From positions 1 to 52,296 of IMG/VR virus record IMGVR_UViG_3300012890_000077: a stretch of 52,296 nt of DNA; one strand, 5' to 3'. Position numbers and translations under genes: made by a program. This document shows positions 187 to 40,858 of this stretch, in pieces; position 1 is the stretch's first letter; each line of letters opens with the position of its first letter. Under the pieces are notes generated by a model that was given only the letters and a program-made list of their open reading frames with translations, made no database searches and was not told the DNA's origin. This stretch comes from a virus. Taxonomy: Duplodnaviria > Caudoviricetes.

Positions 187-200
187 GCCGCCCTTTACGG

Positions 201-1076
201 TCAGCGGCCGATCTGGGAAGTCTTGTCGTTGGTCGGGATTTCCTGTTCACCGTGGAAGTTGTTCGCGTTCCCGAACTTCACGTCGCACGTCGCGAACGTC
301 TTGTCGCAACCCGCCACGAAGACGGCTTGGTCGCCCGCCGCGACCGGGAACGGGAAGGCCGTCCGAAGGGCGATCGCGCCGCCCGCGCCGTGGGTCTTCA
401 CGTCCCGGCGAAGCCCCGCGTTCGCGCCGGTCAGGAACTGGACCGTCCCGCGCGTGTAGTGGCCGCTCGGCGCCGACCCATTGACCACGAAGGACGTGGG
501 GCCTGAAACGCTCGACACGCTGGCCGTGGCGCGGATCGGGACGCCCTGGAGGGTGTTCCCCGTCAGGACGACCTTACACTGAAGATCGCCCAGGCATCGA
601 CAGCGGCACGTCGGGGAAAGGGTGTCCCCGATAACCTGCTTCAATCGGTCGGAAAGGCTCTTTACCGTCACGCTGAAACGGCCGTCCACGACCTCGACGC
701 CGCCCAGGTAGCCGACAAGAAGAAGGGCGTGGGACGCCACGTTCGGATTGGCCTTCGCGTAGGCCCGATTGACCAGCCGCACTTCGATCCGCGCGCCGTC
801 GTAGCGCCCCGCGTCCAGGTCGTCCTCCGTGATCCGGTCGGACGTGATCAGGCCCGAAACGTCCATGTTGTCCACGCCGGTACCCGTCTTCGACTGGATG
901 GCCGTCGTCCCGATGCCTTCCGCCGCGTGGTAGGTCTGACCCAGGTACGACAGGTCCGCGTCCCGATCCGTGAAGCCCATCGTCACGCCGTCCGTCCGCG
1001 TGATCAGGACCAGGGTCGCCAGGGTCAGCGCGCCGCCCTGGATATGGTCGGCCAGGGGCGCGGGAACGGATCGCAT
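201..1076 (-). CDS. DUF2163/BR0599-type baseplate hub protein
   Basis: ITRTDG..GFTD N-terminus, CRC..GD..C and GCDKTFATC..KFGN..NF.G Cys motifs. Confidence 0.92.
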   Translation of the reverse strand: MRSVPAPLADHIQGGALTLATLVLITRTDGVTMGFTDRDADLSYLGQTYHAAEGIGTTAIQSKTGTGVDNMDVSGLITSDRITEDDLDAGRYDGARIEVRLVNRAYAKANPNVASHALLLVGYLGGVEVVDGRFSVTVKSLSDRLKQVIGDTLSPTCRCRCLGDLQCKVVLTGNTLQGVPIRATASVSSVSGPTSFVVNGSAPSGHYTRGTVQFLTGANAGLRRDVKTHGAGGAIALRTAFPFPVAAGDQAVFVAGCDKTFATCDVKFGNANNFHGEQEIPTNDKTSQIGR

Positions 1077-1163
1077 GGGACCCCGTACGACGAACGGGGC
1101 CGCCTCCCGAAAGAGAACGACCCCGCCGCCGGATGGAACACGCGATGGAACGCAGGGTCGCCC

Positions 1164-1559
1164 CTACTCGACCTGGAGTCGCTTCCAAACGCCGCCAGCG
1201 TTCCGAAGGGTGACTTTCCAGGTCCGTGTCAGGTTGCCCTTTTTGCCCTTCAGGGCGACCTGATAAAGATGGGGGTCTTTCTCGTCCTGGACGATCTTCG
1301 CCCCTGAAGACGACTCGGGAAGGCTCCAGGCGGCCAGGTCGTCCGTCTTGGACGCCGCGATCCTCTCCTGGACGTAGCGCCGCGCCATCATGTAGGCCGC
1401 CGACGCCTCCCCGGTGTATTCGGGGCTTGACGATTCCACGGCCTGGGCGCCCGTTTGCGGGGCCTTTGTGGCCTGGGCCGTCTCTTTGTCCAGCGGGGCG
1501 CAACCGAAGGCCAGAAGGGCCAGGAGGGCGAAGGGGGCGCGGTGCATCGTCAGACCCAT
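1164..1559 (-). CDS. Putative lipoprotein inserted in the tail-tip module
   Basis: Signal peptide with lipobox LLAFGC; start at 1559 or 1547. Confidence 0.65.
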   Translation of the reverse strand: MGLTMHRAPFALLALLAFGCAPLDKETAQATKAPQTGAQAVESSSPEYTGEASAAYMMARRYVQERIAASKTDDLAAWSLPESSSGAKIVQDEKDPHLYQVALKGKKGNLTRTWKVTLRNAGGVWKRLQVE

Positions 1560-1594
1560 TATGGCGCCGCCCCATCCCGCCCGTGGGTCGTTCG

Positions 1595-2437: not shown

Positions 2438-2476
2438 CCCATCGCTTACGGTCGCGATGGGACGCCCTTTCCGGGC

Positions 2477-5545: not shown

Positions 5546-5587
5546 CGGCCCCCATACGGGAGGGCCTGAAAGGGCGAAGACCCCGGT

Positions 5588-6234: not shown

Positions 6235-6248
6235 CCTGGTCCCATACG

Positions 6249-8127: not shown

Positions 8128-8607
8128 CTAAGGTCCCGCCTTACGGAGTTTTTCGGACACGTACTTCCCGATCAGGTCCTTCGCCTTCGCCTGGACGGTG
8201 TTCGCCGCCGGTTTCAGGAAGGGCCGCGCGGCCATATGGACCGTGCCCATTTCAAGGTAAATCCCGTAGTTCACGCAGACGCCGACCTTCGCCTGGTAGT
8301 CCGCCTCGATGGGCTTTCCGGGGGCCGCCGCCTGGAAAGGACCGTGGGGCCGCTTCGACTTCGCGCCGAGGCCGGACGCCAGCGCCATCGCCGCCGCCAG
8401 GGCCTCCGCCCTCGTGTCCAGACCGTGGGCCTGGACGAACACCGACCGCCGAAGCGCGCCGGTGTCCACCAGGTTTTCGTCCGTGATCTTCTCGATCGCC
8501 TCCTCCTGGATCGCGAACGCGTAGGCCTTCAGTCCCTCCCGGACGCCCTCCGCTATGGCCTCGTTGGCCGCGTTGAAGCGGTCCACGAAGTTGACGTGTT
8601 CGCTCAC
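8128..8607 (-). CDS. HK97 gp10-like tail component
   Basis: VDTGALRRS and YGIYLEMGT..M.ARPFL.PA motifs. Confidence 0.9.
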   Translation of the reverse strand: MSEHVNFVDRFNAANEAIAEGVREGLKAYAFAIQEEAIEKITDENLVDTGALRRSVFVQAHGLDTRAEALAAAMALASGLGAKSKRPHGPFQAAAPGKPIEADYQAKVGVCVNYGIYLEMGTVHMAARPFLKPAANTVQAKAKDLIGKYVSEKLRKAGP

Positions 8608-10263: not shown

Positions 10264-10283
10264 GTCGAAGGCCCCTTACGGCC

Positions 10284-11355: not shown

Positions 11356-11405
11356 TGTTCTCTCGGGTTCCTTGGGTTCCCCTTACGCTAAGCCCCCGAA
11401 GGGGC

Positions 11406-11780: not shown

Positions 11781-13130
11781 TTACTTGTTCTCCTGGCCGT
11801 TGATGCGGGCGTACACGCCAGCGGTGTCGATGGGTCCGGGGGCCGCCTTCGTGGGAGGGACGGCGCCGTTCATGGCGAAAAGGGCCTTACTGCCGCCGGT
11901 CAGAAGCTCGGCGCTGAAGTCGCGGGTGACGCGGGCCTCGACGCTGGCCTTGAAGGTCTTCAGGCCGGGCGTATCCGCAACGTCGCCGCCGTCCGTGAAG
12001 CCGACGACGCCGCCCGCTCCGGTCGCGAACTCGGTGAACGCGGCCTCCAGGGCCTCCTGTTCGGTCGGGAACGCCTTTCCGCGAGTGATCGCGTCCAGAG
12101 CGAACGCCGTGGCCGCGTCCTTCACGCGGGCCTGGGCCGTGGCCGCCTGGTCGTCCGTCTTCGCGTCCACCAGAGCCTGGAGGCGCGCGACTTCGGCCTG
12201 GGCCGCCGCCAGGGCGGGATCGGGGGTCGTCGGGGTCTTCTCCGCGTCCGGCTTCGGGGTTTCGGGCTGGTCTTCGTCCTTCAGGATTTCCTCCAGTTCG
12301 GCCTCCGAAGCGCCGCTGAACTTCGCCAGGACCCGCTGGATAAGCGAAGGCTTTTCGGTCTTCATCGGGGTCCCCTTACGCGGTTTCTCCGGGACGGTCG
12401 GGGCGTCCTCGCTGAACGCCGCGAACACCGCCGCGTCCTCGATTCGCGGATTCAGGCAAAGGGCCATACCGACCAGCCGCTTCGTCGCGCGGTCGAAGGT
12501 CGCGGACACCTTCAGGGGCTCGTCGTCCCCGATCAGGTCCGCGAGGGCGGCCGGGATATGGACCTCCCCGAACAGGGCGTCCCCGTCGCGGTGGGTGATC
12601 GTCGCGTGACCCAGGAGGCGCTTTCCGGGACGGCTGAACACGGTGGGCCGGTGTTCCAGGTCGTTCGGGACGAAGCCGTTCGGGACCAGGCCTTCGTCCG
12701 CGAAGCTGGCCGCGAACGGGGCCGTCTTCAGCCGCGAGATTTCCGCGTCGGCTTCCGCCCAGTCCATGCTGAAGTCCTTGTCCGGGTAGTCGCCCGTGCG
12801 GAACACGATCCCGCGCCGGACCACGAAGGCGCCCTGGAGGGCCGGGGCGTCGTCCAGGCTGAAGGCGGCCGGGCTGACGGGCTCCCAGGTTCGGACCTCC
12901 TGGACGGGCTCGGCATCGCCCAGCGTCACGGCCAGGGTCTTCGCGTCGATAGAGTAGGCGCGCTGGAGGGTCTGGACCTTCCCCGGCCCAGGGCCGGAAG
13001 GCTCCAGGTCGTAGACCACGGAGGCCGGGAAAACGTCCCGCACGTAGGCGAACGCGCCGCCCCCCGTGGTCTGGTTCAGCGCGGTCCCCAATAGGTCACG
13101 GATCGCGCCGTGGGAGAGTTGTCTGGGCAT
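11781..13130 (-). CDS. Putative prohead protease/scaffold fusion
   Basis: Lies directly upstream of the decoration and capsid genes; DLEH and MAL..NPRI..A motifs followed by an Ala/Glu helical region; probable internal start at 12365. Confidence 0.7.
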   Translation of the reverse strand: MPRQLSHGAIRDLLGTALNQTTGGGAFAYVRDVFPASVVYDLEPSGPGPGKVQTLQRAYSIDAKTLAVTLGDAEPVQEVRTWEPVSPAAFSLDDAPALQGAFVVRRGIVFRTGDYPDKDFSMDWAEADAEISRLKTAPFAASFADEGLVPNGFVPNDLEHRPTVFSRPGKRLLGHATITHRDGDALFGEVHIPAALADLIGDDEPLKVSATFDRATKRLVGMALCLNPRIEDAAVFAAFSEDAPTVPEKPRKGTPMKTEKPSLIQRVLAKFSGASEAELEEILKDEDQPETPKPDAEKTPTTPDPALAAAQAEVARLQALVDAKTDDQAATAQARVKDAATAFALDAITRGKAFPTEQEALEAAFTEFATGAGGVVGFTDGGDVADTPGLKTFKASVEARVTRDFSAELLTGGSKALFAMNGAVPPTKAAPGPIDTAGVYARINGQENK

Positions 13131-13148
13131 CGCGCGCCCTCATACGCG

Positions 13149-13684: not shown

Positions 13685-13687
13685 AAT

Positions 13688-13706: not shown

Positions 13707-13775
13707 TATTTTTACCGACGTTTGCGGATTTCCCGAAGTCCTGGGCCTATCTTCCAGAACTGGTATAAAGGTCCT

Positions 13776-17701: not shown

Positions 17702-17736
17702 CGCCCCCTATGCGAAAATTGCGAAAAGTGAAAACT

Positions 17737-19816: not shown

Positions 19817-19828
19817 GACGCGCGCCCC

Positions 19829-21367
19829 TTACGCGTCCTCTTCCGGGTCGCCCGATCCCTTCGGCGCCGGGTCAAGGCCGGGGTTCGTCGCGTTCCGAAG
19901 GTCCCCGGCCGCCAGGCGCTCCATATCCTTCTTCTCGGCCTTCTCCCGCGCGATCGCCGCCATGTCGCGGGGAGGGAGTCCCAGGCGGGCGTCCAGGGCC
20001 TGTAGCTGGCTTTCGTGGATGAACCCGGACGCGTAGGCCTTCGACACCGAATCGAGTTCCTTCGTGAAGTCCTGTTGCTCGACCTTCGCGAGAACCGCGA
20101 CGGGCGCCAGGTCCGTTTCGTCGTCCCCGAAGTTCACCCGGACCAGGAGGCGACCCAGGCCGGTCAGCACGGACGCCATGCGCCCTTTCTGGAACGCGAT
20201 CCGAAGGCCCACCACGTCCTGGCCGGTTTCCTTCGCGCCCTGGGAATCGTGCTTCGCGGCCATCGTCATGCCGTCCGTGCCCAAGATCGCGCGGGTGATC
20301 TGCCGGTCGAAGTAGTCGCAAGCGTTCAGGAACGCCTGGCCGTCGCCCTGGGACTCCAGGAACTGGAACTCCGTGCCGCCCTTGACCGCCATGACGGTCG
20401 CGTTCATCCAGCCCAGCATCGCCTGGTAAAGCGCCTCCTGGGCCGTGATAAGCTCGAAGTTCCCTTCCTCGTCCCGTACGGGCTTCCCGTCCGCGTCCGT
20501 CAGGGGCTCCATACCGCCGCCCTCGACGGGCGTCTTCCCGATAATGCCGGGGCTGGCGAACTGCTTCAGGTACTTGAAGAAGTCGGGAAGGACGTTGGTC
20601 TTCAGGAACCAGGGCAGGTAGGCCGCCCGAAGGACCGACGTGCCGCGCGGGTCGCCGCCCTTCATGCGGTGTTGGAAGATCAGGAACTTCTCCAGCGGGT
20701 ACAGCTTCGACGCGTCGAAGTCGCCGCCCAGGGCCATGATCCCCGCCTGGAGGTTCCCGCCGTCCTTCGGGTCGGCGCCGATCAGGCCCAGGACGTTCCG
20801 GTATTCGTCCACCACGAAGGCTGTGGCCCAGTTCTCCTTCGGCTTCAGCGCGCGGACGACCAGCCGCGCCGCGCCGTCCTGGAGAGTGGGCTTCAGGACG
20901 ATCTCCGCGACCCGGTGGCCCTGGGCGAGTCCGTCCAGAAGGTCGTCAACCACGTCCACCAGGGAAAGGCCCTCCATCGCCCCGTCCTTCGTGCAAGCCT
21001 CGACAAAGGCCCGATACTCTTCCGCCTTCTGGGCGCGGGCCGTCTTGTCCGGGTCGGCCTTCTCCCAGGCGCCGGGCATCGCCACGGCCGCCTCCCACCG
21101 GACGCCATCGGCCACCACGCCCAGCTTGTAAGTCTCGTAGTCGCTGGACACCGTGTCGTCGGTCAGCATCCGATCGTAAAGATCGGCGCCGAAGTCGCGG
21201 GTCAGGTCGTCAATGAAGCGGGGGAGGGCCTGTTTTACGGCCATGAGGGCCGCCCACTGGCCTCCCGCGACGAACTCCTGGAGGTACTGGCGGCCGTCCT
21301 TCGCGGGCTGGGTGGGCGCGACGGATGGGGCCGCGTCCGGCGTGGTCTTCTTGGGGCGCGGGGGCAT
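19829..21367 (-). CDS. Portal protein (DUF935/Mu gp29-like)
   Basis: G....E, P.G.S.LRAAY.PW..K, F..P..IGK and D.QI..AILG motifs. Confidence 0.92.
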   Translation of the reverse strand: MPPRPKKTTPDAAPSVAPTQPAKDGRQYLQEFVAGGQWAALMAVKQALPRFIDDLTRDFGADLYDRMLTDDTVSSDYETYKLGVVADGVRWEAAVAMPGAWEKADPDKTARAQKAEEYRAFVEACTKDGAMEGLSLVDVVDDLLDGLAQGHRVAEIVLKPTLQDGAARLVVRALKPKENWATAFVVDEYRNVLGLIGADPKDGGNLQAGIMALGGDFDASKLYPLEKFLIFQHRMKGGDPRGTSVLRAAYLPWFLKTNVLPDFFKYLKQFASPGIIGKTPVEGGGMEPLTDADGKPVRDEEGNFELITAQEALYQAMLGWMNATVMAVKGGTEFQFLESQGDGQAFLNACDYFDRQITRAILGTDGMTMAAKHDSQGAKETGQDVVGLRIAFQKGRMASVLTGLGRLLVRVNFGDDETDLAPVAVLAKVEQQDFTKELDSVSKAYASGFIHESQLQALDARLGLPPRDMAAIAREKAEKKDMERLAAGDLRNATNPGLDPAPKGSGDPEEDA

Positions 21368-21401
21368 CGTGGCCCCCCTTTACGCCCAGCGCGCGGGACG
21401 C

Positions 21402-21823: not shown

Positions 21824-21971
21824 CGGTCCCCCTCTACGGCCTCCAGGTCAGACGGACAGGCCACTTCCCCCAGGTCGCCCTAGAACTGGGTCGGCGCGTG
21901 GACCGCGAACCGCCCGCCGCTCGACAGGTCGCCGTCCAGCCGGGCGTCGTCGCCTTCGATCACCATTCGGA

Positions 21972-22244: not shown

Positions 22245-22380
22245 TCGGCGTCCCCCTTGCAAGCGTCGAAAAGGGCCGCGACACCCAGGAGGGCGACGGC
22301 CACCACGCCCAGGGCCACCGGCCAGAAGGAAGAATCCATCCCGACCCCCTACGGGAAGGCGCGAACGCGCCCCTAATAAC

Positions 22381-24040: not shown

Positions 24041-24047
24041 GGGGGCC

Positions 24048-25202
24048 TTATACGGAAGCGAACAGGCCACCCAAGGCGAGTTCTTCGGGAGTCGGCTCGG
24101 CCTTCGCGCGGGTCGCCGGGGCCAGGTCCCAGTCCCTTACGAACTCGACCCAAAGGGCCTCTAGTTCGGCTTCGCCCAGTCGGACGGCCGACCCGTGTTT
24201 GCGGCGCATACCGTCCGCGAAACGGCCACAGGCGGCCGTGAAGGCCTCCCGCTGGCCCTCTCTCGTGCCCTCCGCGATCTTGACCAGTTCCTTATCAAAG
24301 TCGCCGTCGTTGTCCGCGTACAGGCCGAATTCCCAGACGTGCCAGTTCAGGTGTCCGTGGCGCGGCTGGAGACGCCAGCCAGTGTCCGTCTTCTGGATCG
24401 CCACCGCCGACGTGGCGACCATCGTCCCGCTTTCCTTGAAGGCGCCCGCGTCGATGTTCTCCCACTCCCCGAACTCACAGACCAAATCCAGGAACTCCTG
24501 ACTTCGTCGGTCGTCTCGGAACTGCCAGCTAGTCGGCACGATGGCGCCCAGGACGCCGCCCGGCCTCAGAAGGCTCCAGGCGTGGAAGACGTGGGTCGCG
24601 TAGGCCTGTTTGTCGCCCTCCAGGCTGAAAGGCGGGTTCATAATCACCGCGTCGTAGACCGCGCCGGGGTTCCAGGCCAGGAAGTCGTCGCCCACCAGCG
24701 CGTGACCCTTCGCCTCCAGGACCGCGCGATTGACGGAAAGGACCTCGCAACAATCGACCGCCCAGGTGTGGCGCCGACCCCAGCCCCAGCCCTCGTACTC
24801 GGCGTTCCGCTGGGCCTCCAGCGCGCGGACGGCATCGGCCAGGGCTCCCGTACCGGCCGAAGGTTCCAGGACGCGCCCATCGTAGGGCACGGACGACAGA
24901 CCGTCCATCATGTCGAACAGGAGTTCCAGCACCGGCGCCGGGGTCGGGAAGAACGCCGTGGGGTTCTTCGGGGGTTGTTCGCCGGACGCGACGACGGCGG
25001 CCAGGAGAGGCGCCGGGTCGTAGAACGCGAAGACGTGGGCCGGGCGCTTCGACTTCTTCCACTTGCCGCCCAGTCGGGTAAGGACCTCGTTGACGCGCTC
25101 GTAAAGATCGCGCTCCAGGGTGATATCCGGGAGGTACAGGTTCTGGCCTTCACAGTGGGCCATCGACAGGACTTCCAGGGCGTCGTTTTCGATCCGGGGC
25201 AC
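24048..25202 (-). CDS. N6-adenine DNA methyltransferase
   Basis: FFPTP, VLEPSAGTG (motif I) and MNPPF (motif IV). Confidence 0.92.
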   Translation of the reverse strand: MPRIENDALEVLSMAHCEGQNLYLPDITLERDLYERVNEVLTRLGGKWKKSKRPAHVFAFYDPAPLLAAVVASGEQPPKNPTAFFPTPAPVLELLFDMMDGLSSVPYDGRVLEPSAGTGALADAVRALEAQRNAEYEGWGWGRRHTWAVDCCEVLSVNRAVLEAKGHALVGDDFLAWNPGAVYDAVIMNPPFSLEGDKQAYATHVFHAWSLLRPGGVLGAIVPTSWQFRDDRRSQEFLDLVCEFGEWENIDAGAFKESGTMVATSAVAIQKTDTGWRLQPRHGHLNWHVWEFGLYADNDGDFDKELVKIAEGTREGQREAFTAACGRFADGMRRKHGSAVRLGEAELEALWVEFVRDWDLAPATRAKAEPTPEELALGGLFASV

Positions 25203-25230
25203 CCGGCCCTTTACGGGAACGCCATGCACG

Positions 25231-26090: not shown

Positions 26091-26206
26091 AGCAATCCTT
26101 ACGGGATTCTTCCGCCAGGTTGGAAAACGATCCTTAAACGACGAAAGGTCCGGGCCCGTTTAAGCAACGAAACCGGACCTATACGCGGAACGCCGACGTT
26201 GAGTCC

Positions 26207-28542: not shown

Positions 28543-28606
28543 GGGCTCCCCTTTACGCAAGAGGTACAAATCAGATGTGCCTGATTCGCTTTCACCTGCC
28601 TTTCGG

Positions 28607-29344: not shown

Positions 29345-29552
29345 ATGAGGTTGCCTAAGATGACCCCCGTAGCCTGGAAAACGTCAGCCGTCCACCAGCG
29401 CCAGGCGGTAGATCGCGCCGATAGCGGCAAGGGCTACGAGGGCCGTTCCGAAGATCGCGGCCACGGGATCAGTCCCGCCCCTTGAAAATCCGAACGATTT
29501 CCACGATTCCCCAGACGATTACGAGGGTGATACAGAAGTCCATCGGCTCCCC

Positions 29553-30137
29553 TTACGCGCGCCGTCCACGGCGGATCAGGGAGGCCAGACCCAGGCCCAG
29601 GGCCGCGAGGGGCACCGGTTCCGGGACGGGCTGGGCCTGGGCTTCGACCTCGAAGGCGCCCGGCCCGAAGTCGCTCCAGTAGCGCCCGTTCAGGTAGGCC
29701 GGGGAGGGCGCCACGTCGGCCGCCGTCCAGGCCAGCGAACCGGCGGAAGTCGCCAGAAGCCAGTAGGCCGTCCCGGCCGTGATCGCCTCCCCGTGCGCCG
29801 TGACGCTCGAAAGCTCCCCGGCCTGGTTCCAGAAGGGAACGCCCGCGCTCAGTCCCTCGAAGGACGCCAGGGAGGCGCCGACCTGGCCGCCGTCGTCCGC
29901 GCGAAGCTCCAGCGCGTAGGCCGTGGGTCCGACGCTCCCGGCGTTGAACATGGACAGGCGGAAACCGGTCAGCGCGCCGGTCTGGGTGGGCGTGAACCGG
30001 AACGCGGGCACGTTGCCCGGCGAAACCATGTAGGAGTCCCCGGTGGGCGATCCAAGGGACGAAAAGACGACCGTGGGGCTGGCCGCCGCGAGAAAGGGCA
30101 GGACCGCGAGGGCCAGGGCGAAGGCGTGACGCTTCAT
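29553..30137 (-). CDS. PEP-CTERM exosortase-target surface protein
   Basis: Signal peptide plus C-terminal VPEP-TM-RRGRR. Confidence 0.88.
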   Translation of the reverse strand: MKRHAFALALAVLPFLAAASPTVVFSSLGSPTGDSYMVSPGNVPAFRFTPTQTGALTGFRLSMFNAGSVGPTAYALELRADDGGQVGASLASFEGLSAGVPFWNQAGELSSVTAHGEAITAGTAYWLLATSAGSLAWTAADVAPSPAYLNGRYWSDFGPGAFEVEAQAQPVPEPVPLAALGLGLASLIRRGRRA

Positions 30138-30159
30138 CCCGGCCCCCTTACGGGGTTCC

Positions 30160-32513: not shown

Positions 32514-32531
32514 GCGGCCCCCTTACGCGGA

Positions 32532-32759: not shown

Positions 32760-32789
32760 GGCCCACCCTCTACGCCGATCGGCACCGGG

Positions 32790-32957
32790 TCACTTGCGCC
32801 GCCGCTTCGCCCGCTTCCGGGGCTTCAGCCAGGGGAGGACCATCTGGGCGGGCTCCGTCGCCTTCGGGGCGGGCTCGGGTTCGGCCTTCGGGGCGTCGGG
32901 GTCGGGCCAGAACTCTTCCAGCCCAGGAAGGTTTCCGGTCAGGTCGTCCAGGATCAC
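32790..32957 (-). CDS. 55-aa protein with basic C-terminus
   Basis: Translated by hand: MILDDLTGNLPGLEEFWP...KPRKRAKRRRK; CGTACGTG 10 nt upstream. Confidence 0.5.
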   Translation of the reverse strand: MILDDLTGNLPGLEEFWPDPDAPKAEPEPAPKATEPAQMVLPWLKPRKRAKRRRK

Positions 32958-33045
32958 GCGGACCACGTACGAAAAAGCCCCGCTAGGCCGTCCAGCGGAC
33001 GATCTGCGAGGCCTGTTCCCCCGAAGGGGCGGAAGGGGTCGGCCG

Positions 33046-33291
33046 TTAGAGGCCGACCGGAATGAACGCGCCCACGAAGTCCGCGAAGGCGCTGGCGAAC
33101 TTCCGACCGAAGGCCACCACGGCGTCCGGGTCGGCCTTCGCCTTCGACGCCAGCGCGCGAAGGGCCTTCTCCGGGATCGTCGCCAGGCGCTCGACGGCGC
33201 CCCGGCCGCCCTGGTCGTAGGCCGCGCGGCCCGCGTCCAGGAGGAACGTCAGGATGGTCTGGAGGCTGACCAGTTTCAGGAGACTACTCAT
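33046..33291 (-). CDS. Hypothetical protein
   Basis: CGTAAGGG upstream; phage-like codon usage. Confidence 0.6.
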   Translation of the reverse strand: MSSLLKLVSLQTILTFLLDAGRAAYDQGGRGAVERLATIPEKALRALASKAKADPDAVVAFGRKFASAFADFVGAFIPVGL

Positions 33292-33302
33292 AGCCTGGCC
33301 CC

Positions 33303-34238
33303 TTACGCGGTTCGGGTCGGCTCGTCGGGCTCCAGGTCGTCCAGGTGGTTCGGATCGCGCGTGAACGTCTCCCCGTCGATCAGGTCGCGGAATTTCAGGC
33401 GGCTCCCGCCGAAGGCCCGCCCCTCGAAGCGGACGGTCGTCCCGCCCGGCCGCGCGTAGACGCTTCCCACCACGAAGGACCGCTGACCCACCCTAACCTC
33501 CAGGAGTTCGTCGCCCTCGAAGACGCGAAGGACCACGGGCTTGCGGTTCGCCGCCGCCACGGCCGCTTCCTGGATTTCGCGGGCCAGCCGGGCGTCCTGG
33601 GCCTTCGCGTGGACCTCTTCCGCGCCAGAGACAGCGTAGGGCTTGACGCGGGCCGCGCTCGGGAGGAAGACCTCGGGGCCATTATCGGCCACGATGTAGG
33701 GCCGACGCGGAAGGACGCAACCGCCCGCGCGATGGATCACGAAGGCCGAATGGTCCGGCGTGTCGCCCGCCAGGTCCACGCCCACGACGCGGGCCTTCGC
33801 TTCCTCCTGGATTTCCTGGGCCATGCGGCCCATGCTGGCCTTCAGGGCTTCGTGGAACCGGTCTTCGGGGGTCGGCCCCGCTTCCTCCGGCGCCTCGAAC
33901 ATGGCCGGGCTGACGGCCTGGGCTTCGGCCAGGAACATACCGCCCCAGAGGATCGCGCCCAGGTCGTCGTCGCCGTCCCAGGGCTGGCGGCCGTCCAGCT
34001 TCGCGGCCAGCGTGAAGGCGTGGCGAATGACGTGGGACAACCTCGCCTTAACGTACTCGGGATCGCCCAGGCCCTGGCGCCAGTTGTCCCGCCCGTGCTT
34101 CTTCGCGCCCAGTTCCTGGCGCCGGGCAAGCGCGTTCAGAGTGCTAAGTGGAATGGCGGTGTAGTCGTGGCACTCGGAGGCGCGGGCGCCGGACTGGGTG
34201 GTAACGACCTTTTCGCCGTCGTGGTTTCGCGTGGTCAC
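33303..34238 (-). CDS. DUF5664-type dATP/dGTP diphosphohydrolase domain protein with C-terminal extension
   Basis: IP...L..LA....GAKK.G..NW..G...H...H and D.L.A..W motifs. Confidence 0.75.
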   Translation of the reverse strand: MTTRNHDGEKVVTTQSGARASECHDYTAIPLSTLNALARRQELGAKKHGRDNWRQGLGDPEYVKARLSHVIRHAFTLAAKLDGRQPWDGDDDLGAILWGGMFLAEAQAVSPAMFEAPEEAGPTPEDRFHEALKASMGRMAQEIQEEAKARVVGVDLAGDTPDHSAFVIHRAGGCVLPRRPYIVADNGPEVFLPSAARVKPYAVSGAEEVHAKAQDARLAREIQEAAVAAANRKPVVLRVFEGDELLEVRVGQRSFVVGSVYARPGGTTVRFEGRAFGGSRLKFRDLIDGETFTRDPNHLDDLEPDEPTRTA

Positions 34239-34253
34239 GTCCCCCACCTACGG

Positions 34254-34282
34254 AAAAGGCCGGCACTCTCGAAGTGTCGGCC
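34254..34282 (-). terminator. Intrinsic terminator
   Basis: GGCCGACAC-TTCG-..GTGCCGGCC-TTTT, then CCGTA. Confidence 0.7.
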
Positions 34283-34306
34283 CGCCCCGTCCGTTCTGTT
34301 GGTTTT

Positions 34307-34894
34307 TCAGGCCTGTTCGGCCTCGATCGGTAGCGCGATCGCTCCCCGCCGGTAGGCCTCCAGGAGCGCCAGGTGAAGGGCGCCCACTCTCAGCTTCCGG
34401 TAGGCGTTGTTCTGGTGGAAGCTGACGGTCGAAACGCTCACACCCATGCTCGACGCCACGTCCTGGGCCGTTCCAAGGTCGCAAAAGGCCTGAAGGGTGG
34501 CCGCCTCCCGTTCGGTCAGGGCCTGGACCGCCTCGACCTCTTCCCTCTCCAGGGCGCCGTCCCACGCGACCCGACCCCGCTCCCAAACGTCGAAGGCCGC
34601 CCGCTCGACCGCCAGCGCGCCGTCCTGGGTCCGCGCGTCAAGACCCACGGTTCGGCCGTGTCCGCGCTTCAGGCATTCGCGGGCCTGGAAAAGCGACCCG
34701 ATGGACCGTTCCACCATGACCCGGACGAAGGCGGGAAAGGGCGACCGGTCGGGGTCGTAGTCGGGGGAGTTGCAAGCCCTCAGGAGGGCGTCCGAAACAA
34801 GGTCTTCGCGGTCGATTCCGCCAGGGAAGGTCTTGCGCGAAAGGATCGCGCGGGCCTCCTTCATAAACTCCAGGGACTGGGCGTCGGTCAGCAC
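34307..34894 (-). CDS. ECF-like sigma-70 factor with LuxR-type HTH
   Basis: EDLVSDALL....YDP.RS.F..F (region 2); LTERE...DVA..MGVS.STV..H....YRKL (region 4). Confidence 0.8.
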   Translation of the reverse strand: MLTDAQSLEFMKEARAILSRKTFPGGIDREDLVSDALLRACNSPDYDPDRSPFPAFVRVMVERSIGSLFQARECLKRGHGRTVGLDARTQDGALAVERAAFDVWERGRVAWDGALEREEVEAVQALTEREAATLQAFCDLGTAQDVASSMGVSVSTVSFHQNNAYRKLRVGALHLALLEAYRRGAIALPIEAEQA

Positions 34895-34915
34895 CCAGCC
34901 CCATACGGGCCGCCG

Positions 34916-36358: not shown

Positions 36359-36570
36359 CCCTCGACCTCCGTGGTGTCCGCGCCTTCGGCCTTCGCCATG
36401 ATATGGCGCGTGACCAGGGCGCCGCCTAGGGCTCCCACGACGGCGGAAACGACGTTCCCCAGCCAGTCGGGCGGGGTGTGGCCGGTCAGGCCGAAGGCGC
36501 CCGTCAGGATCACGCATCCCAGGGCGATGGCCGCCAGCGCCTTCACGATGCTCGTCGCAAGATGAATCAT
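36355..36570 (-). CDS. Putative holin (2 TM)
   Basis: Two hydrophobic helices and a charged C-terminus. Confidence 0.55.
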   Translation of the reverse strand: MIHLATSIVKALAAIALGCVILTGAFGLTGHTPPDWLGNVVSAVVGALGGALVTRHIMAKAEGADTTEVEG

Positions 36571-36582
36571 TCCGGGTCCCCC

Positions 36583-36969
36583 TTACGGGGTTCCTCCGTC
36601 GCCGTCGATGGGGCCATAGTTGCGCTGGTAGAGGCCCCGAAGAAGGCCGATTTCCCGCGCGGTCTGGGCGTCGGCCGTGGACCTTCGGTCCAGGGACCCC
36701 TGAACGTCGTCCAGGCGCTTTAGGACCTTATCGAATCCCCTGTCGATCCGGTGGGACACCGCGTCGTCGGCCGACTCCCTGGCCTTGGATTCCGCCTTCA
36801 GGTCCGACGCGTTCGCCTCCAGGCGGGCGTCTAGGCGGGCGTAGGTCACGCCCAGGCCGAACGTCCCGGCGAACAGGGTGAAGACGAAGGCCTTCAGGGG
36901 CTCGACGCTGGCGAACCACTCGGAAAGAGCCTGGATCGTGCCGGGTGGCGACGGCTTGGGGACGGACAT
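36583..36969 (-). CDS. TM plus coiled-coil protein (possibly lysis-associated)
   Basis: N-terminal TM followed by a heptad region; adjacent to the holin-like gene. Confidence 0.55.
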   Translation of the reverse strand: MSVPKPSPPGTIQALSEWFASVEPLKAFVFTLFAGTFGLGVTYARLDARLEANASDLKAESKARESADDAVSHRIDRGFDKVLKRLDDVQGSLDRRSTADAQTAREIGLLRGLYQRNYGPIDGDGGTP

Positions 36970-36994
36970 GATCCGCCCCCATACGCGGATCGCC

Positions 36995-38605: not shown

Positions 38606-38613
38606 CCGCCCCC

Positions 38614-39546
38614 TTACGCGGCTTCCGCGAACAGGCCCAGCGTGTCCTCCTGGGCCTTCGGGGCGCGCGTCCGGCGCACGGCCGGGGCCGCCGCCTGGGG
38701 TCGCTCGGGAGTCGCCTCTTCCTGGATTCCCGCCCGCTCCCGCATATCGCGGACCAGCGCGCCCACAAGGTCGGGCCGGATTCGGAGGCCGGGGAACGAA
38801 CCGTGGAAGCGGATCGTCAGGGCCGCCGCAAGCTCGGTGTAGTCGTAGCCCTGGCCGATGCCCTCCAGGATCAGGCGCTGGGCGTCCGTGTAGGTGTCGA
38901 ACACCTTCCGGGCCATGTCCCAGGCTTCGTCCGACTCACGAACCGACGCGCCGCCCTCCAGGCTCTCCTGGCCCGTCGCCAGGCCCTGAAGGTCCGCGTG
39001 GGTCTGACCTGGCATCGCGGCCCGCGCGAAGGCCAGGAGGGCCTTCAGGCCCGTCAGGTCGCCTTCCCCGAAGATCGCGTCCACCAGGGCGTCCCAGGCC
39101 GATTCCCTGGCCGCCGCCCAGCGGGTCCGAACGTCGTCCCGGTCCATGATCCCGCCCAGTTCGTCGTCGTCCCCGGCCACCATGTCGGCCAGGCTAAGGT
39201 CCCCGTCGTCGTCGCCCAGGGGCGCGTCCAGGCTCCGTAGCGCGCTGGGCGGAACCTCCCCGACCGCGTGGGCCGCGCGGTGAAGGTCGCGAAGGGCGTT
39301 CAGCATAAGCCGCTTGGCGAACGTCTTGAACTTCGTCCCGCGCCCGTCCTCGTAGCGCCGGACGGCCCGCAGGAGTCCGGCCAGGGCTTCGGCCTGGCGG
39401 TCGTCGTGGTCGTATCCCCGGATCGGGAAGGCGTTCGCCAGGATTCCCGAAAGGTCCCAGTACCGCGCGATCAGGGCCGATTCGGCGCCCTTGTCTTTCG
39501 CCTGGGCCGCTCGGGCCAGGTCTTCGTCCGTCTTTAGGTCGTACAT
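38614..39546 (-). CDS. Sigma-70 family (SigH-like) factor
   Basis: TDEDL...A, D...E...GL..AV..Y....G..F.TFA, SLD.P and G..Y.ELA..L. Confidence 0.88.
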   Translation of the reverse strand: MYDLKTDEDLARAAQAKDKGAESALIARYWDLSGILANAFPIRGYDHDDRQAEALAGLLRAVRRYEDGRGTKFKTFAKRLMLNALRDLHRAAHAVGEVPPSALRSLDAPLGDDDGDLSLADMVAGDDDELGGIMDRDDVRTRWAAARESAWDALVDAIFGEGDLTGLKALLAFARAAMPGQTHADLQGLATGQESLEGGASVRESDEAWDMARKVFDTYTDAQRLILEGIGQGYDYTELAAALTIRFHGSFPGLRIRPDLVGALVRDMRERAGIQEEATPERPQAAAPAVRRTRAPKAQEDTLGLFAEAA

Positions 39547-39610
39547 TCTTGCGTGTTCCGTTGCGTCCCTGGACCTGGGGGCGTGTGGTGCCGCCCTCCA
39601 GGTCCTCCCC

Positions 39611-40858
39611 TTACGCGGCGCGCGGCCGGACCAGAATCCGGTCGTTGTCCCAGTCGAACTTCAGGGCCGTCCCCTGGGCGCCGAAGCGTGAATAGTCGAT
39701 AGTCAGGTTCACCGTGGTCTGGTCTTCCCGCTCCAGGGTCATAACCCAGCCCGCCTTCTCTTCCCAGGCGCGGCTGTACTTGGTCTTCGCCTTCTCGCCG
39801 TCCTTCCCCTCCGTGATCTGGGACCCGACGACCAGGGGAAGGCCGGTCCTTCGGGCCAGGTTGTTCACCTTGCGGGCGACGATGTTGGCTTCGCTGATTT
39901 CGTTGAAGGCCTTCGGGTCCCGGCTGGTGATCTCCTGGGCGTAGTCCAGGAAGAACACGTCGAACTTGTGCTTCGCGTGGGCCGCCTTCAGCCAGGCCGC
40001 GAACGTCTCGATATCCGTCCCGTCGTCCAGGTCGGCCGCGTCGTAGACCCACATATCCCAGCCCAGGACGTTCTGGAGCGCTTCATCGAAGTCGGCCGCC
40101 GCGTTCAGGTCGCGAAGGGGGCGCTTTCCCCACTTCGTCAGTTGCCGCATAACGCGCCGCTTGAACTGTTGGCGGTTCAGGTCCGCGAAGACCGCGTAGC
40201 CGACCCGGAGGCCGCGTTCCGCCAGCCGGACGGCGCTGGAGGCCTTAAAGGTCGATTTGCCGCCCTTGTGATAGGCGCGGACCACCGTCATTTGCCCCTC
40301 GGGATAGCCCCCGATATCGTTCATCAGGTCCAGTTCCTGCCAGCCGGTGGACACGCCGCCGTTCTCTTCCCCGATTTCCACGTCCCCGATCAGGACGAAG
40401 GGGTCCGCCGTGGCCGTGGGCATCTGCTCGAAGGCGTGAAGGTAGGCCTTCACGTCGTCCATGCTGGCCTCCGGGTCCTGGGTCAACGCCAGGAGGCGCC
40501 GCGCCCGCGCCTCCAGGTCGCGCCGGGTCCATTCCTTCTTCACGATTTCCGCGTAGTGGCCGCAGTTCGACGCGCTGGGGACGTACAGGTCCAGTTCCTG
40601 GAGGTAGGCCATGCCGCCCACGTCGCCCAGCTTGTCGCCCAGCGTGGCTCGAAGGGTCGTGAAGTCCACGGGGGCGTTCCCTTCGACCAGGGCCAGCATC
40701 GCGGCGTAGATCGTCCGGTGTCCCGGCCGGTAGAAGTGTTCGGGCTTCAGGGTCCCGGCCATCTGTTGGGCCGCGCCGCCGTCCAGGAGCATCGCCCCCA
40801 GGACGGACATTTCCGCCTCGACGGAGTAGTTTCTACGAATGTTTAGGTTATCGTTCAT
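39611..40858 (-). CDS. dnaB: Replicative DNA helicase
   Basis: EAE.SVLG..L, FY...H..IY, TG..ELD, GGKST, LDY.Q and SQI. Confidence 0.92.
   Translation of the reverse strand: MNDNLNIRRNYSVEAEMSVLGAMLLDGGAAQQMAGTLKPEHFYRPGHRTIYAAMLALVEGNAPVDFTTLRATLGDKLGDVGGMAYLQELDLYVPSASNCGHYAEIVKKEWTRRDLEARARRLLALTQDPEASMDDVKAYLHAFEQMPTATADPFVLIGDVEIGEENGGVSTGWQELDLMNDIGGYPEGQMTVVRAYHKGGKSTFKASSAVRLAERGLRVGYAVFADLNRQQFKRRVMRQLTKWGKRPLRDLNAAADFDEALQNVLGWDMWVYDAADLDDGTDIETFAAWLKAAHAKHKFDVFFLDYAQEITSRDPKAFNEISEANIVARKVNNLARRTGLPLVVGSQITEGKDGEKAKTKYSRAWEEKAGWVMTLEREDQTTVNLTIDYSRFGAQGTALKFDWDNDRILVRPRAA

What the first reader, a model, noticed from the sequence alone, without database searches (positions are those of the whole stretch)
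187..39615. Nearly every late gene has its own CGTAnnnG element: candidate gene-by-gene, near-leaderless late transcription by a phage sigma factor
Seen: on the minus strand, CGTA lies 9-13 nt upstream of the starts at 186, 1076, 2437, 5545, 6234, 10263, 12365, 13130, 19816, 21367, 21823, 22339, 24040, 25202, 26090, 28542, 29543, 30137, 32513, 32759, 32957, 33291, 34238, 34894, 36570, 36969 and 38605, with a CGCA variant at 17701. It lies further upstream at 8125, 11355 and 39546. The 8th base is G at all but two sites, while the three middle bases vary (TAAGGG, TATGGG, TAGAGG, TACGTG, TATAAG). The motif often starts right after a terminator T-tract (6249, 13149, 32972, 34254), and several upstream genes end in Ala/Pro-TAA that forms it. 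It is absent from translationally coupled genes, plus-strand early genes and the low-GC island. Inference: it has the geometry of a TAnnnT -10 box 5-9 nt before a leaderless start, as used at 13764, 26416 and 49568, but with altered specificity; CGTA is also a known ECF-type -10 core (B. subtilis SigW). This would replace the single antiterminated late operon of lambdoid phages with about 30 promoters. I found no convincing -35.
Basis: partly seen in the sequence, partly recalled or inferred. Interest (0 to 1): 0.9.

Follow-up and report, generated by a model that had tools for sequence, protein, structure and literature searches.

The report
Phage promoter box before each gene
A temperate phage of an Armatimonadota-type bacterium carries the short box CGTAnnnGG 13-17 bases before the start codon of nearly every gene that is not translationally coupled to its neighbour, most likely as a phage-specific promoter that makes mRNAs beginning at or near the start codon.

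Summary
All 27 listed minus-strand starts have CGTA 13-17 nt upstream, in a 9-nt box CGTA[A/T/G][G/A]GGG. CGTAAGGGG occurs 11 times on that strand, 0 on the other, and 34 times in the remaining 5.1 Mb.

It is not a Shine-Dalgarno site. Host genes show almost no SD signal. They carry (G)TAnnnT with T at -12, the mark of leaderless genes. CGTA has no complement in the 16S tail of same-genus relatives. Three related prophages keep CGTA-N3-GG at 13-14 nt, but one replaces the G-run with CGGC.

In relatives, three divergent gene pairs have only 27-33 nt between start codons, filled by two back-to-back boxes. At the major capsid gene the box lies 32 nt (window) or 23 nt (relative) upstream.

In the window, all 26 box-bearing genes lie at least 7 nt from the upstream gene. 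The 13 genes that overlap, abut or lie 2 nt from it lack the box.

A sigma-70-family gene (38614-39546) is shared by all four phages.

Best reading (about 0.65): a -10-only promoter with T-7 changed to G, read by the phage sigma and giving leaderless mRNAs. No transcript data exist.

The parts
191..199 (-). box CGTAAAGGG, 13 nt before ATG 186 (NlpC/P60-like gene that continues across the contig ends)
1081..1089 (-). box CGTACGGGG, 13 nt before ATG 1076 (tail assembly protein)
2442..2450 (-). box CGTAAGCGA, 13 nt before ATG 2437 (glycoside hydrolase)
5550..5558 (-). box CGTATGGGG, 13 nt before GTG 5545 (tape measure)
6240..6248 (-). box CGTATGGGA, 14 nt before ATG 6234; hairpin plus TTTT directly upstream
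8137..8145 (-). box-like CGTAAGGCG, 20 nt before ATG 8125 (606-aa protein, 2 nt after the upstream gene)
10272..10280 (-). box CGTAAGGGG, 17 nt before ATG 10263; hairpin plus TTT upstream
11379..11387 (-). box CGTAAGGGG, 32 nt before ATG 11355 (major head protein). A short leader is predicted
12372..12380 (-). box CGTAAGGGG inside the protease-like gene, 15 nt before the in-frame ATG 12365 (nested 194-aa product, scaffold-like by position)
13138..13146 (-). box CGTATGAGG, 16 nt before ATG 13130 (head maturation protease-like); hairpin plus TTTT upstream
17706..17714 (-). variant CGCATAGGG, 13 nt before GTG 17701 (minor head protein). First gene after a divergent plus-strand block
19825..19833 (-). 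box CGTAAGGGG, 17 nt before ATG 19816 (47-aa hydrophobic peptide)
21376..21384 (-). box CGTAAAGGG, 17 nt before ATG 21367 (portal)
21830..21838 (-). box CGTAGAGGG, 15 nt before ATG 21823 (58-aa membrane-like peptide)
22345..22353 (-). box CGTAGGGGG, 14 nt before ATG 22339 (32-aa hydrophobic peptide)
24046..24054 (-). box CGTATAAGG, 14 nt before ATG 24040 (terminase large subunit)
25207..25215 (-). box CGTAAAGGG, 13 nt before GTG 25202 (DNA methyltransferase-like)
26095..26103 (-). box CGTAAGGAT, 13 nt before ATG 26090 (HTH protein)
28549..28557 (-). box CGTAAAGGG, 15 nt before ATG 28542 (endolysin)
29549..29557 (-). box CGTAAGGGG, 14 nt before ATG 29543 (24-aa hydrophobic peptide)
30144..30152 (-). 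box CGTAAGGGG, 15 nt before ATG 30137
32519..32527 (-). box CGTAAGGGG, 14 nt before ATG 32513
32766..32774 (-). box CGTAGAGGG, 15 nt before ATG 32759
32963..32971 (-). box CGTACGTGG, 14 nt before GTG 32957; hairpin plus TTTTT upstream
33299..33307 (-). box CGTAAGGGG, 16 nt before ATG 33291
34244..34252 (-). box CGTAGGTGG, 14 nt before GTG 34238; hairpin plus TTTT upstream
34899..34907 (-). box CGTATGGGG, 13 nt before GTG 34894 (195-aa sigma-like protein, r2 plus r4/GerE)
36579..36587 (-). box CGTAAGGGG, 17 nt before ATG 36570. Its TAA is the stop codon of the upstream gene
36977..36985 (-). box CGTATGGGG, 16 nt before ATG 36969
38610..38618 (-). box CGTAAGGGG, 13 nt before GTG 38605 (beta-helix protein). 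Its TAA is the stop codon of the sigma gene
39607..39615 (-). box CGTAAGGGG, 69 nt before ATG 39546 (the conserved sigma gene), inside the 3' end of the DnaB-like gene. Possible self-activation
46752..46760 (+). the only plus-strand copy that is start-associated: CGTAGGTGG, 14 nt before GTG 46766 (92-aa ORF)
38614..39546 (-). 310-aa sigma-70-family protein, the candidate reader of the box. Conserved in all four box-bearing phages
34307..34894 (-). second sigma-like gene (195 aa). Not found in the three relatives with this query
51010..51522 (+). weak third sigma-like gene (Sigma70_r2, 18.8 bits, below Pfam's cut-off). Not found in relatives with this query

Best explanation
CGTAnnnGG is a promoter -10 element of a small family of temperate phages of Fimbriimonas-like (Armatimonadota) hosts. 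It keeps the G-13, T-12 and A-11 of the host's own -10 box, (G)TAnnnT. The host's T at -7 and the base after it are replaced by GG.

The box sits so that transcription would begin at, or 1-3 nt before, the ATG or GTG. That gives leaderless or nearly leaderless mRNAs, which is how most host genes appear to be expressed.

Because the host makes almost no use of Shine-Dalgarno sites, a phage gene seems to be expressed in one of two ways. Either it is coupled to the stop codon of the gene before it, or it has its own box.

The most likely reader is the conserved phage sigma factor (38614-39546) bound to host core RNA polymerase, without a -35 element. A box 69 nt upstream of the sigma gene would let it feed back on itself.

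Shown here: the motif, its position, its phage specificity, its conservation in relatives, the host's start-site signals, and the sigma fold.

Inferred: that the box acts on DNA as a promoter, where the transcript starts, and which sigma reads it.
For: 1. Same geometry as host leaderless promoters.
- The host TAnnnT has its T at -12 in 45 of 492 genes, and at -15..-11 in 118. The box's T lies at -11 to -15 in the window and at -12 in 13 of 17 sites in the closest relative, G409.
- The phage's own host-type boxes sit at the same place: TACATT before GTG 49580, and one before ATG 13684.
- A published analysis reads TANNNT about 12 bp upstream of the start codon as the -10 box of leaderless genes (PMC3160421, passages read).

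2. Not an SD site.
- The host shows no SD enrichment in the 492 genes. In 945 genes GGAG is found 118 times against 74.5 expected, and GGGG 59 against 61.8.
- The same pipeline finds GGAG or AGGA as the top word in 5 of 5 control prophage loci from other families, where CGTA is seen 1-2 times against 0.3-1.3 expected.
- CGTA has no complement in the 16S tails of relatives.
- The 8th base is G in 26 of 27 sites, where A would pair better with CCUCCUUA.
- G272 has CGTAAnCGGCa with no purine run.

3. Phage-specific. Of 276 copies of the degenerate box elsewhere in the host genome, only 7 precede a coding start. Host genes with CGTA at 13-17 nt (32 of 492) have T (18), A (9), G (3) or C (2) as the 8th base.

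4. Conserved in relatives. CGTA or GTAA is the top-enriched word before starts called from coding potential in all four phages. The distance is 13-14 nt in 14 of 17, 13 of 17 and 11 of 12 curated sites in G409, G139 and G272. The spacing is tighter than SD-to-start spacing in control prophages: mode share 0.38-0.85 against 0.18-0.33.

5. Divergent gene pairs. Only 27, 28 (G272) and 33 nt (G139: portal and a minor-head homologue) lie between the start codons, filled by two back-to-back boxes.

6. The box can sit far from the start. It is 32 nt (window) and 23 nt (G409) before the major capsid gene, and 69 nt before the sigma gene.

7. Either a box or coupling. All 26 box genes have gaps of at least 7 nt to the upstream gene. 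All 13 genes with gaps of 2 nt or less lack the box at 13-17 nt.

8. Hairpin plus T-run immediately upstream at 5 of 27 sites.

9. Start codons. No box gene uses TTG (0 of 26, against 3 of 20 for the others). GTG is common in host leaderless-type genes (29 of 73).

10. The sigma.
- Pfam Sigma70_r2 scores 35 bits against a cut-off of 24.
- The model has pLDDT 82.6. All listed Foldseek matches (to rank 50) are sigma factors, or holoenzyme or sigma-partner complexes aligned on the sigma chain.
- Homologues are present in all 3 relatives that carry the box.
- Among 401 genomes of the phylum, full-length matches were listed only in G000, G139 and G272.
Against: - No transcript 5' ends exist for this phage, so a DNA-level role is inferred from geometry alone.
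- The sigma has a C-terminal HTH resembling region 4 (Sigma70_r4_2 in 4 of 36 family members). Yet no -35 element is detectable in any of the four phages.
- In the window the distance spreads over 13-17 nt. Many transcripts would therefore carry 1-3 extra bases or start imprecisely.
- In this phage the G-run lies 4-8 nt before the start, and TAAGG can pair with the CCUUA of the 16S tail. Seven of 20 box-less genes have GGAG- or AGGA-type words upstream, so SD-type initiation is not excluded in this host.
- About 30 promoters with few terminators imply heavy read-through.
- The sigma assignment rests on co-occurrence in four related, non-independent phages. The window phage has two further sigma-like genes.
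- Several gene starts, especially the small ORFs, were chosen with the box in view.
Confidence: 0.65

Rival explanations
1. The box acts on the mRNA as a phage-specific translation-initiation element: an atypical ribosome-binding site, or the site of a phage- or host-encoded RNA-binding factor. This would resemble the Start-Associated Sequences of Cluster K mycobacteriophages. It would allow internal initiation on polycistronic transcripts.
For: - The box always lies on the coding strand just upstream of start codons. Its G-run is 4-8 nt before the start.
- TAAGG can pair with the CCUUA end of the 16S tail in relatives.
- It is absent from coupled genes.
- At 6 of 26 sites it contains the upstream stop codon.
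- SAS elements show the same kind of placement and the same near-absence from the host genome (PMC3203893, passages read).
Against: - Host genes do not use it: 7 of 276 copies precede coding starts.
- CG and the conserved 8th-base G have no rRNA partner.
- G272 lacks the purine run.
- The box lies 23-69 nt upstream of the capsid and sigma genes.
- The divergent pairs with 27-33 nt between starts would need further promoters inside the opposing genes.
- The spacing in G409 is fixed at 14 nt in 13 of 17 sites.
Confidence: 0.15
2. The box is a promoter, but it is read by a host sigma factor (for example an ECF-type sigma with a CGTA -10 core) or by host sigma-A aided by a phage co-factor, not by the phage sigma.
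For: - Host -10 boxes often read (C)GTAnnnT: 32 of 492 genes have CGTA at 13-17 nt.
- CGTA as the -10 core of B. subtilis SigW is recalled, not tested here.
- A Fimbriimonas genome paper lists about 30 rpoE-type sigma genes (PMC4072686, passage read).
Against: - No 'AAC'-type -35 element lies 16-17 nt upstream.
- The degenerate box (CGTA[ATG][AG]GGG) almost never precedes host genes (7 of 276 copies). Only 2 of the 32 host CGTA sites have GG at bases 8-9.
- A phage sigma co-occurs with the box in 4 of 4 phages.
Confidence: 0.1
3. The box marks an RNA processing site. A nuclease cuts polycistronic transcripts a fixed distance downstream and releases mRNAs that begin at the start codon.
For: It would explain the strand bias, the closeness to starts and the need for leaderless 5' ends in this host. 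No direct evidence.
Against: - No nuclease candidate was identified near the box genes.
- The distance varies over 13-17 nt in the window.
- The box resembles the host -10 box letter for letter at G, T and A.
- The divergent pairs again need promoters elsewhere.
Confidence: 0.05

Closest known systems
phiEco32 middle and late promoters read by the phage sigma gp36
   Same: A phage-encoded, divergent sigma-70-family protein directs host core polymerase to many phage promoters that share one short consensus around -10 (AATGTA centred at -11.5). Source: PMC12276001, introduction and results passages read.
   Different: The motif differs. The gp36 structure shows its C-terminal domain contacting the -35 region (same passages); here no -35 signal is detectable. 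phiEco32 transcripts were not described as leaderless in the passages read. The host here is SD-poor, and the box is tied to the start codon.
T4 late promoters (TATAAATA read by gp55 with gp33 and the clamp)
   Same: Many -10-only promoters spread along the late genes, read by a phage sigma-like protein without a -35 element. This is recalled; gp55 is named as a phage sigma in PMC5312081, passage read.
   Different: T4 late mRNAs have leaders and SD sites (recalled). gp55 is a minimal sigma. No gp33- or clamp-type co-activator was looked for here.
Leaderless middle and late transcripts of Thermus phage phiYS40, and host '-10 adjacent to ORF' expression in Deinococcus-Thermus
   Same: The promoter -10 box is placed so that mRNA starts at the start codon, and most middle and late phage mRNAs lack a leader. 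Sources: review PMC3594737, passage read; PMC12340547, abstract read; PMC3160421, passages read.
   Different: As far as recalled, those promoters are read by the host's primary sigma. Here the -7 position is G and a phage sigma is the candidate reader. The host phylum also differs.
Start-Associated Sequences (SAS) of Cluster K mycobacteriophages
   Same: A short, asymmetric, phage-specific repeat lies a few nt before the start codons of many genes. It sometimes contains the upstream stop codon, and it is nearly absent from the host genome (PMC3203893).
   Different: SAS is 13 bp (GGGATAGGAGCCC) with an SD core, lies 3-7 bp from the start, is restricted to non-structural genes, and was proposed to act in translation. 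The box here has no SD core, resembles the host -10 box, and covers structural genes too.

Membership tests
Bacterial -10 promoter element of leaderless genes (TANNNT about 12 nt before the start codon) | TA at -12/-11 relative to the start codon, in the same window as host leaderless genes | tested here: met
   The box's T lies at -11..-15 (window) and at -12 in 13 of 17 sites (G409). The host peak is at -12, range -15..-11.
Bacterial -10 promoter element of leaderless genes (TANNNT about 12 nt before the start codon) | T at the last hexamer position (-7) | tested here: not met
   The 8th base of the box is G in 26 of 27 sites. Host sites with CGTA have T 18, A 9, G 3, C 2. It is therefore a variant, not a standard box.
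Bacterial -10 promoter element of leaderless genes (TANNNT about 12 nt before the start codon) | Primary transcript 5' end at or next to the start codon | not testable with these tools
   No RNA run was listed for this sequence.
ECF-sigma promoters (SigW type: -35 'AAC' motif, 16-17 nt spacer, -10 CGTA) | Conserved -35 element with an AAC core at a fixed spacer | tested here: not met
   No column with information of 0.5 bits or more lies between -45 and -5 in the window. No enriched 4- or 5-mers other than stop-codon words occur at -34..-9 in four phages.
ECF-sigma promoters (SigW type: -35 'AAC' motif, 16-17 nt spacer, -10 CGTA) | -10 core CGTA or CGTC | tested here: met
It is also the top unbiased 4-mer. 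The SigW consensus itself is recalled, not checked.
Shine-Dalgarno ribosome-binding site | Complementarity of the conserved bases to the 16S rRNA 3' tail | tested here: not met
   The tails of 5 same-genus relatives read ...CACCTCCTTAAAGGAT...CACCTCCTTAAAAGAT or ...CACCTCCTAAAAAGAT. CG and the 8th-base G have no partner. G272 has CGGC in place of the G-run. The 16S of G000 itself was not found (no RF00177 match).
Shine-Dalgarno ribosome-binding site | Used by the host's own genes at the same position | tested here: not met
   GGAG is flat across positions in 492 genes. GGGG is 59 against 61.8 expected in 945 genes. Of 276 host copies of the box, 7 precede starts.
Cluster K Start-Associated Sequences | 13-bp GGGATAGGAGCCC with an AGGAG core, 3-7 bp before the start, on non-structural genes | tested here: not met
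   The sequence, spacing (4-8 nt after a 9-nt box without AGGAG) and gene set differ (PMC3203893).
Sigma-70 family (protein 38614-39546) | Region 2 domain above Pfam's curated threshold | tested here: met
   PF04542 scores 35.0 bits against a cut-off of 24. 35 of 36 family members match.
Sigma-70 family (protein 38614-39546) | Overall fold like solved sigma factors, including a C-terminal region-4-like HTH | tested here: inconclusive
   The AF2 model has pLDDT 82.6. All listed Foldseek PDB matches are sigma factors, but only 1 has E of 0.001 or less, and whole-chain TM is 0.2-0.4. Region-2 fragments give target-normalised TM 0.77-0.86. Sigma70_r4_2 is found in only 4 of 36 members.
Sigma-70 family (protein 38614-39546) | Binds core RNA polymerase and directs initiation at the box | not testable with these tools
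   Needs in vitro transcription.

The most novel reading that the evidence does not exclude
This host lineage translates essentially only leaderless mRNAs and cistrons coupled to an upstream stop codon. Its temperate phages have adapted accordingly. Every uncoupled gene, including nested in-frame starts and 24-47-aa membrane peptides, has its own -35-less promoter. The promoter's -10 box (CGTAnnnGG) differs from the host's (G)TAnnnT mainly at -7/-6 and is read by a dedicated phage sigma. That would be a natural sigma/promoter pair set apart from the host's by a T-to-G switch at -7, and a transcription plan of about 30 single-gene or short units instead of one late operon.
Probability: 0.45. 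Interest if true: 0.75.

Novelty: new variant of a known kind. Interest (0 to 1): 0.62.

Why it matters
If the box is a promoter, three things follow.

1. It defines a new phage sigma/promoter pair. Its specificity differs from the host -10 box mainly at -7/-6, which is a compact natural test case for how sigma region 2 reads that position.

2. It shows how a phage organises expression in a host that hardly uses Shine-Dalgarno sites. Each gene has either its own start-codon-adjacent promoter or strict stop-start coupling.

3. It gives a practical annotation rule for this phage group. The box pinpoints true start codons, a nested scaffold-like start and very small membrane-peptide genes.

It also flags the host lineage as leaderless-dominated. 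I found nothing on this in print: one search, 'Armatimonadetes' plus 'leaderless', returned 2 unrelated papers.

Tried and rejected
- RNA evidence: no RNA holder was listed for window 28000-37900.
- Phage database: megablast of 30000-39000 against the phage collection found no match.
- Own 16S: RF00177 did not match in G000. Tails were taken from relatives instead.
- Viral contigs: the TerL and sigma-alignment scans found no relative.
No metagenome scan was therefore run.
- Maximal-order Markov over-representation of 7-mers was too insensitive to show the box.
- The generic terminator scan found no excess overall: 15 against 15.9 and 12 against 14.9 in shuffles. Only the site-by-site test supports hairpins at a subset of sites.
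- No sub-classes of the box separating structural from non-structural genes were apparent by eye.
- Rejected readings:
  - SD site.
  - Stop-codon by-product: only 6 of 26 sites.
  - A general feature of phages of the phylum: 5 control loci lack it.
- Papers PMC3275717 and PMC1885378 are not held. phiEco32 and phiYS40 are therefore cited from secondary passages.
- Supplementary files were not consulted.

Full report
**Setting.** The window is bases 10-52305 of a 53,655-bp contig (C39) in a 5.15-Mb, 82-contig genome. An ORF that starts at window 186 reads across the joined contig ends into a 201-aa NlpC/P60-like protein. The contig is therefore probably a complete phage genome, circular or circularly permuted.

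PHROGs and Pfam searches identify these genes:
- minus strand, structural and lysis: tail assembly, tape measure, major head, head decoration, protease-like, minor head, portal, large terminase and endolysin;
- minus strand, other: methyltransferase-like, an SbcD-like exonuclease and a DnaB-like helicase;
- plus strand: SSB, a Gam-like protein, an AAA_24 (AAA ATPase) protein and an integrase;
- three sigma-like proteins: 38614-39546 (Sigma70_r2, 35 bits), 34307-34894 (r2 plus r4/GerE) and, weakly, 51010-51522.

All 27 listed starts have CGTA with its C 13-17 nt before the start codon (13:8, 14:7, 15:5, 16:3, 17:4).

Aligned on CGTA, the sites give a 9-nt box, CGTA[A15/T6/G4/C2][G20/A7][G22][G26][G24]. 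No column from -45 to -5 reaches 0.5 bits; the only flanking column at about 0.5 is a T at -4. There is no -35-like element.

CGTA itself is not enriched, but CGTAAGGGG occurs 11 times on the minus strand of C39, 0 times on the plus strand, and 34 times in the other 5.1 Mb.

Of 108 minus-strand CGTA, 31 are followed within 8-19 nt by a start opening a coding ORF. On the plus strand it is 3 of 144.

Of 36 minus-strand CGTANNNGG, 24 lie 12-18 nt before a curated start. Two more lie upstream of the capsid and sigma genes. Nine occur on the plus strand, one of them 14 nt before GTG 46766.

With starts chosen only by coding potential, CGTA is the top 4-mer at -20..-5: 16 of 61 genes against 1.9 expected.

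**What the host does.** I took 492 host genes whose start is unambiguous: the first ATG or GTG within 45 nt of an in-frame stop, with no other candidate for 20 codons.
- No SD word is enriched at any position.
- TAnnnT peaks with its T at -12 (45 genes) and has shoulders at -15..-11 (118 in all).
- G is favoured at -13 (43 GTA).

A second set of 945 genes, called with the pipeline used for the phages, gives -10-like words as the top hits (TAGA 90 against 15.8 expected). GGAG shows only a weak excess (118 against 74.5) and GGGG none (59 against 61.8).

The same pipeline applied to five prophage loci from other families of the phylum returns GGAG or AGGA as the top word, and no CGTA signal. The method therefore sees SD sites where they exist.

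A published survey interprets TANNNT about 12 bp upstream of the start codon as the -10 box of leaderless genes (PMC3160421, passages read). On that standard the host is leaderless-dominated and SD-poor.

**Why the box is not an SD site.**
- The 16S gene did not turn up in G000 (no RF00177 match). In five same-genus relatives the tail reads GGATCACCTCCTTAAAGGAT...CCTTAAAAGAT or ...CCTAAAAAGAT. TAAGG could pair with CCUUA. CG has no partner. The best-conserved G (8th base, 26 of 27) sits where A would pair better.
- The host does not use the box. Of 276 copies of CGTA[ATG][AG]GGG elsewhere in the genome, 7 precede a coding start.
- Host genes that do have CGTA at 13-17 nt (32 of 492) continue as ordinary -10 boxes. 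The 8th base is T 18, A 9, G 3, C 2, and only 2 have GG at bases 8-9.

**Relatives.** A TerL search found a prophage in a MAG titled Fimbriimonas sp. (63% identity; handle G409). Two more distant prophages lie in genomes of the host's own genus: G139 at 49% and G272 at 34% TerL identity. Of 56 window proteins, 25, 17 and 16 have homologues there. Five other loci share only one to three proteins, TerL among them.

In G409, 11 of 34 genome-wide CGTAARGGG copies cluster on one strand of 36 kb.

All three relatives have the element before their gene starts:
- G409: CGTAA[A/G]GGG;
- G139: tCGTAnnGGG;
- G272: CGTAAnCGGCa.

CGTA or GTAA is the top unbiased word in each.

I curated sites with a filter that required GG at bases 8-9 and an ATG or GTG start. 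Among these, the distance is 14 nt in 13 of 17 (G409), 13-14 in 13 of 17 (G139) and 13-14 in 11 of 12 (G272). Under one common extraction rule this is tighter than GGAG-to-start spacing in the control prophages.

Loss of the purine run in G272, in a host of the same genus, argues against rRNA pairing. A fixed T at -12 matches the host -10 position.

**Anatomy that favours a promoter.**

(a) Divergent pairs. G272 has two pairs of diverging genes with 27 and 28 nt between their start codons. G139 has one, portal against a minor-head homologue, with 33 nt. In each pair the interval consists of two back-to-back boxes. Any other promoter would have to lie inside the opposing gene.

(b) Distant boxes. 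Before the major capsid gene the box is 32 nt upstream in the window and 23 nt in G409. Before the sigma gene it is 69 nt upstream. This is too far for a ribosome-binding role and fits a short leader.

(c) Box or coupling. Among 46 curated minus-strand genes, the 26 with the box have gaps of 7-1972 nt to the upstream gene. Thirteen genes with gaps of -4 to +2 nt lack it. The remaining six exceptions with a measured gap are:
- the capsid and sigma genes (box further upstream);
- 17701 (CGCA variant);
- 13684 (a host-type TAnnnT box);
- 40858 (gap 9 nt);
- a doubtful ORF at 1559.

The 20th box-less gene, 42665, is the first of its strand block and has no upstream gene to measure from.

(d) Hairpins. 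Five of 27 boxes directly follow a GC-rich hairpin with a T-run. Seven of 27 have an upstream 40-nt folding energy in the lowest tenth of 400 control windows.

(e) Start codons. No box gene starts with TTG (0 of 26, against 3 of 20). GTG is frequent in host leaderless-type genes (29 of 73, against 81 of 419). This fits initiation of the RNA with a purine.

**The candidate reader.** The 310-aa protein 38614-39546 has a region-2 domain above Pfam's cut-off. Its best PDB sequence matches are FliA, SigK and SigF. It has a C-terminal HTH-like segment conserved among its relatives.

An AlphaFold model built on 36 sequences has pLDDT 82.6. All listed Foldseek matches are sigma factors, though only one reaches E of 0.001 or less, and whole-chain TM is low. 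That is expected for multi-domain sigmas modelled off the polymerase.

Homologues lie in all three box-bearing relatives. A profile search of 1.84 billion representatives finds 31 at E of 1e-30 or less and 37,087 at 1e-3 or less, most of the latter being ordinary sigmas. Among 401 genomes of the phylum, the listed matches covering the whole profile are only in G000, G139 and G272. The others cover the region-2 part only.

The other two sigma-like genes were not found in the relatives with these queries.

These four phages are kin, so the co-occurrence is suggestive and not a statistical proof.

**Mechanism proposed.**
1. Early genes and lysogeny genes use host-type TAnnnT boxes at the same distance from their start codons, for example TACATT before GTG 49580.
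2. The sigma gene is first reached by transcription through the replication genes. It then reinforces itself from the box at 39607-39615.
3. The phage sigma directs core polymerase to about 30 CGTAnnnGG boxes.
4. Each transcript begins at, or 1-3 nt before, its ATG or GTG. It is translated as a leaderless mRNA.
5. Downstream cistrons are translated only where their start overlaps, abuts or lies within 2 nt of the preceding stop.

Steps shown: sequence, position, specificity, conservation, host signals and sigma fold. Steps inferred: DNA-level action, the exact transcript start, and the identity of the sigma.

**Points against.**
- There are no transcript data.
- No -35 element exists despite a region-4-like domain.
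- The spacing spreads over 13-17 nt in the window.
- In this phage the G-run sits at an SD-like distance.
- GGAG- or AGGA-type words precede 7 of 20 box-less genes, so ribosomes here may still use SD sites.
- Some small-ORF starts were chosen with the box in view.

**Comparison with known systems.**
- Closest in mechanism are the phiEco32 gp36 promoters, with a single AATGTA element at -11.5 (PMC12276001), and the T4 late promoters (recalled).
- Closest in output are the leaderless middle and late mRNAs of Thermus phage phiYS40 (review PMC3594737) and the '-10 adjacent to ORF' mode in Deinococcus-Thermus (PMC12340547, abstract).
- Closest in appearance are the Cluster K SAS repeats. These contain an SD core and were assigned to translation (PMC3203893).

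The present element is a new variant. It has a new motif and a new host lineage, it differs from the host -10 box mainly at -7/-6, and it follows a strict box-or-coupling rule. The only paper found on a Fimbriimonas prophage does not treat its promoters in the passages read (PMC4072686). A search for 'Armatimonadetes' plus 'leaderless' gave two unrelated papers.

**Verdict.** Confidence is about 0.65 that the box is a promoter element giving leaderless mRNAs, and about 0.5 that the 310-aa sigma reads it.

Noticed in passing
window 17797 (+), 18216 (+), 46007 (+), 47542 (+), 50725 (+), 39556 (-); G409 capsid gene (G409:C3, just downstream of 2221558): The word ACACGC(A) lies 0-4 nt before the ATG of genes that seem to have leaders, because host-type TAnnnT boxes or a CGTAAGGGG box lie 20-70 nt further upstream. 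The capsid gene of the relative has it too. It may be a non-SD translation signal for leadered mRNAs in this host.
   Followed up: partly
window 13684-13776 and 49555-49580: AT-rich blocks that share the words GTGATAC, ACT and GT(T)ATAC overlap host-type -10 boxes. They lie at the divergent pair 13684(-)/13776(+) and before the 130-aa gene at 49580. The homologous genes of G409 also carry GGTATACAA-type host boxes upstream. They are probably operators of the lysogeny switch.
   Followed up: no
window 22241-22339, 29469-29543, 19673-19816, 21647-21823 (all minus strand): The box precedes very small ORFs of 32, 24, 47 and 58 aa with a hydrophobic core. Length-based gene calling would miss them.
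   Followed up: partly
window 11781-13130, internal start 12365: An in-frame internal ATG with its own box would give a 194-aa C-terminal product nested in the protease-like gene. This resembles the nested scaffold genes of other phages.
   Followed up: partly
window 14234-17701: The 1155-aa minor head protein has a weak PHROG match (E = 9.6e-6, residues 965-1034) to Alt-like RNA polymerase ADP-ribosyltransferases. A virion-borne polymerase modifier would bear on the takeover of transcription.
   Followed up: no
window 26100-28060: This is a low-GC island: 54.5% in the 26001-28000 bin against about 67% elsewhere. It has three minus-strand ORFs (26548-26952, 26949-27335, 27325-27921) that score poorly with host codon usage and lack the box. 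It is probably a recently acquired cargo module.
   Followed up: no
host genome G000 (all contigs except C39): Host genes show almost no Shine-Dalgarno signal. They have C-rich -2/-1 positions (C 54% and 46%) and a recurrent CACAATAG-type word upstream of starts.
   Followed up: partly
G272:C14 about 22163-22190 and 29729-29757; G139:C1, portal / minor-head homologue pair: Back-to-back boxes form near-palindromes (such as GCCGCTTACG|CGTAAGTGGG) between divergently transcribed structural genes. In the window the homologous genes all lie on one strand, so the relatives carry inversions of structural modules.
   Followed up: partly
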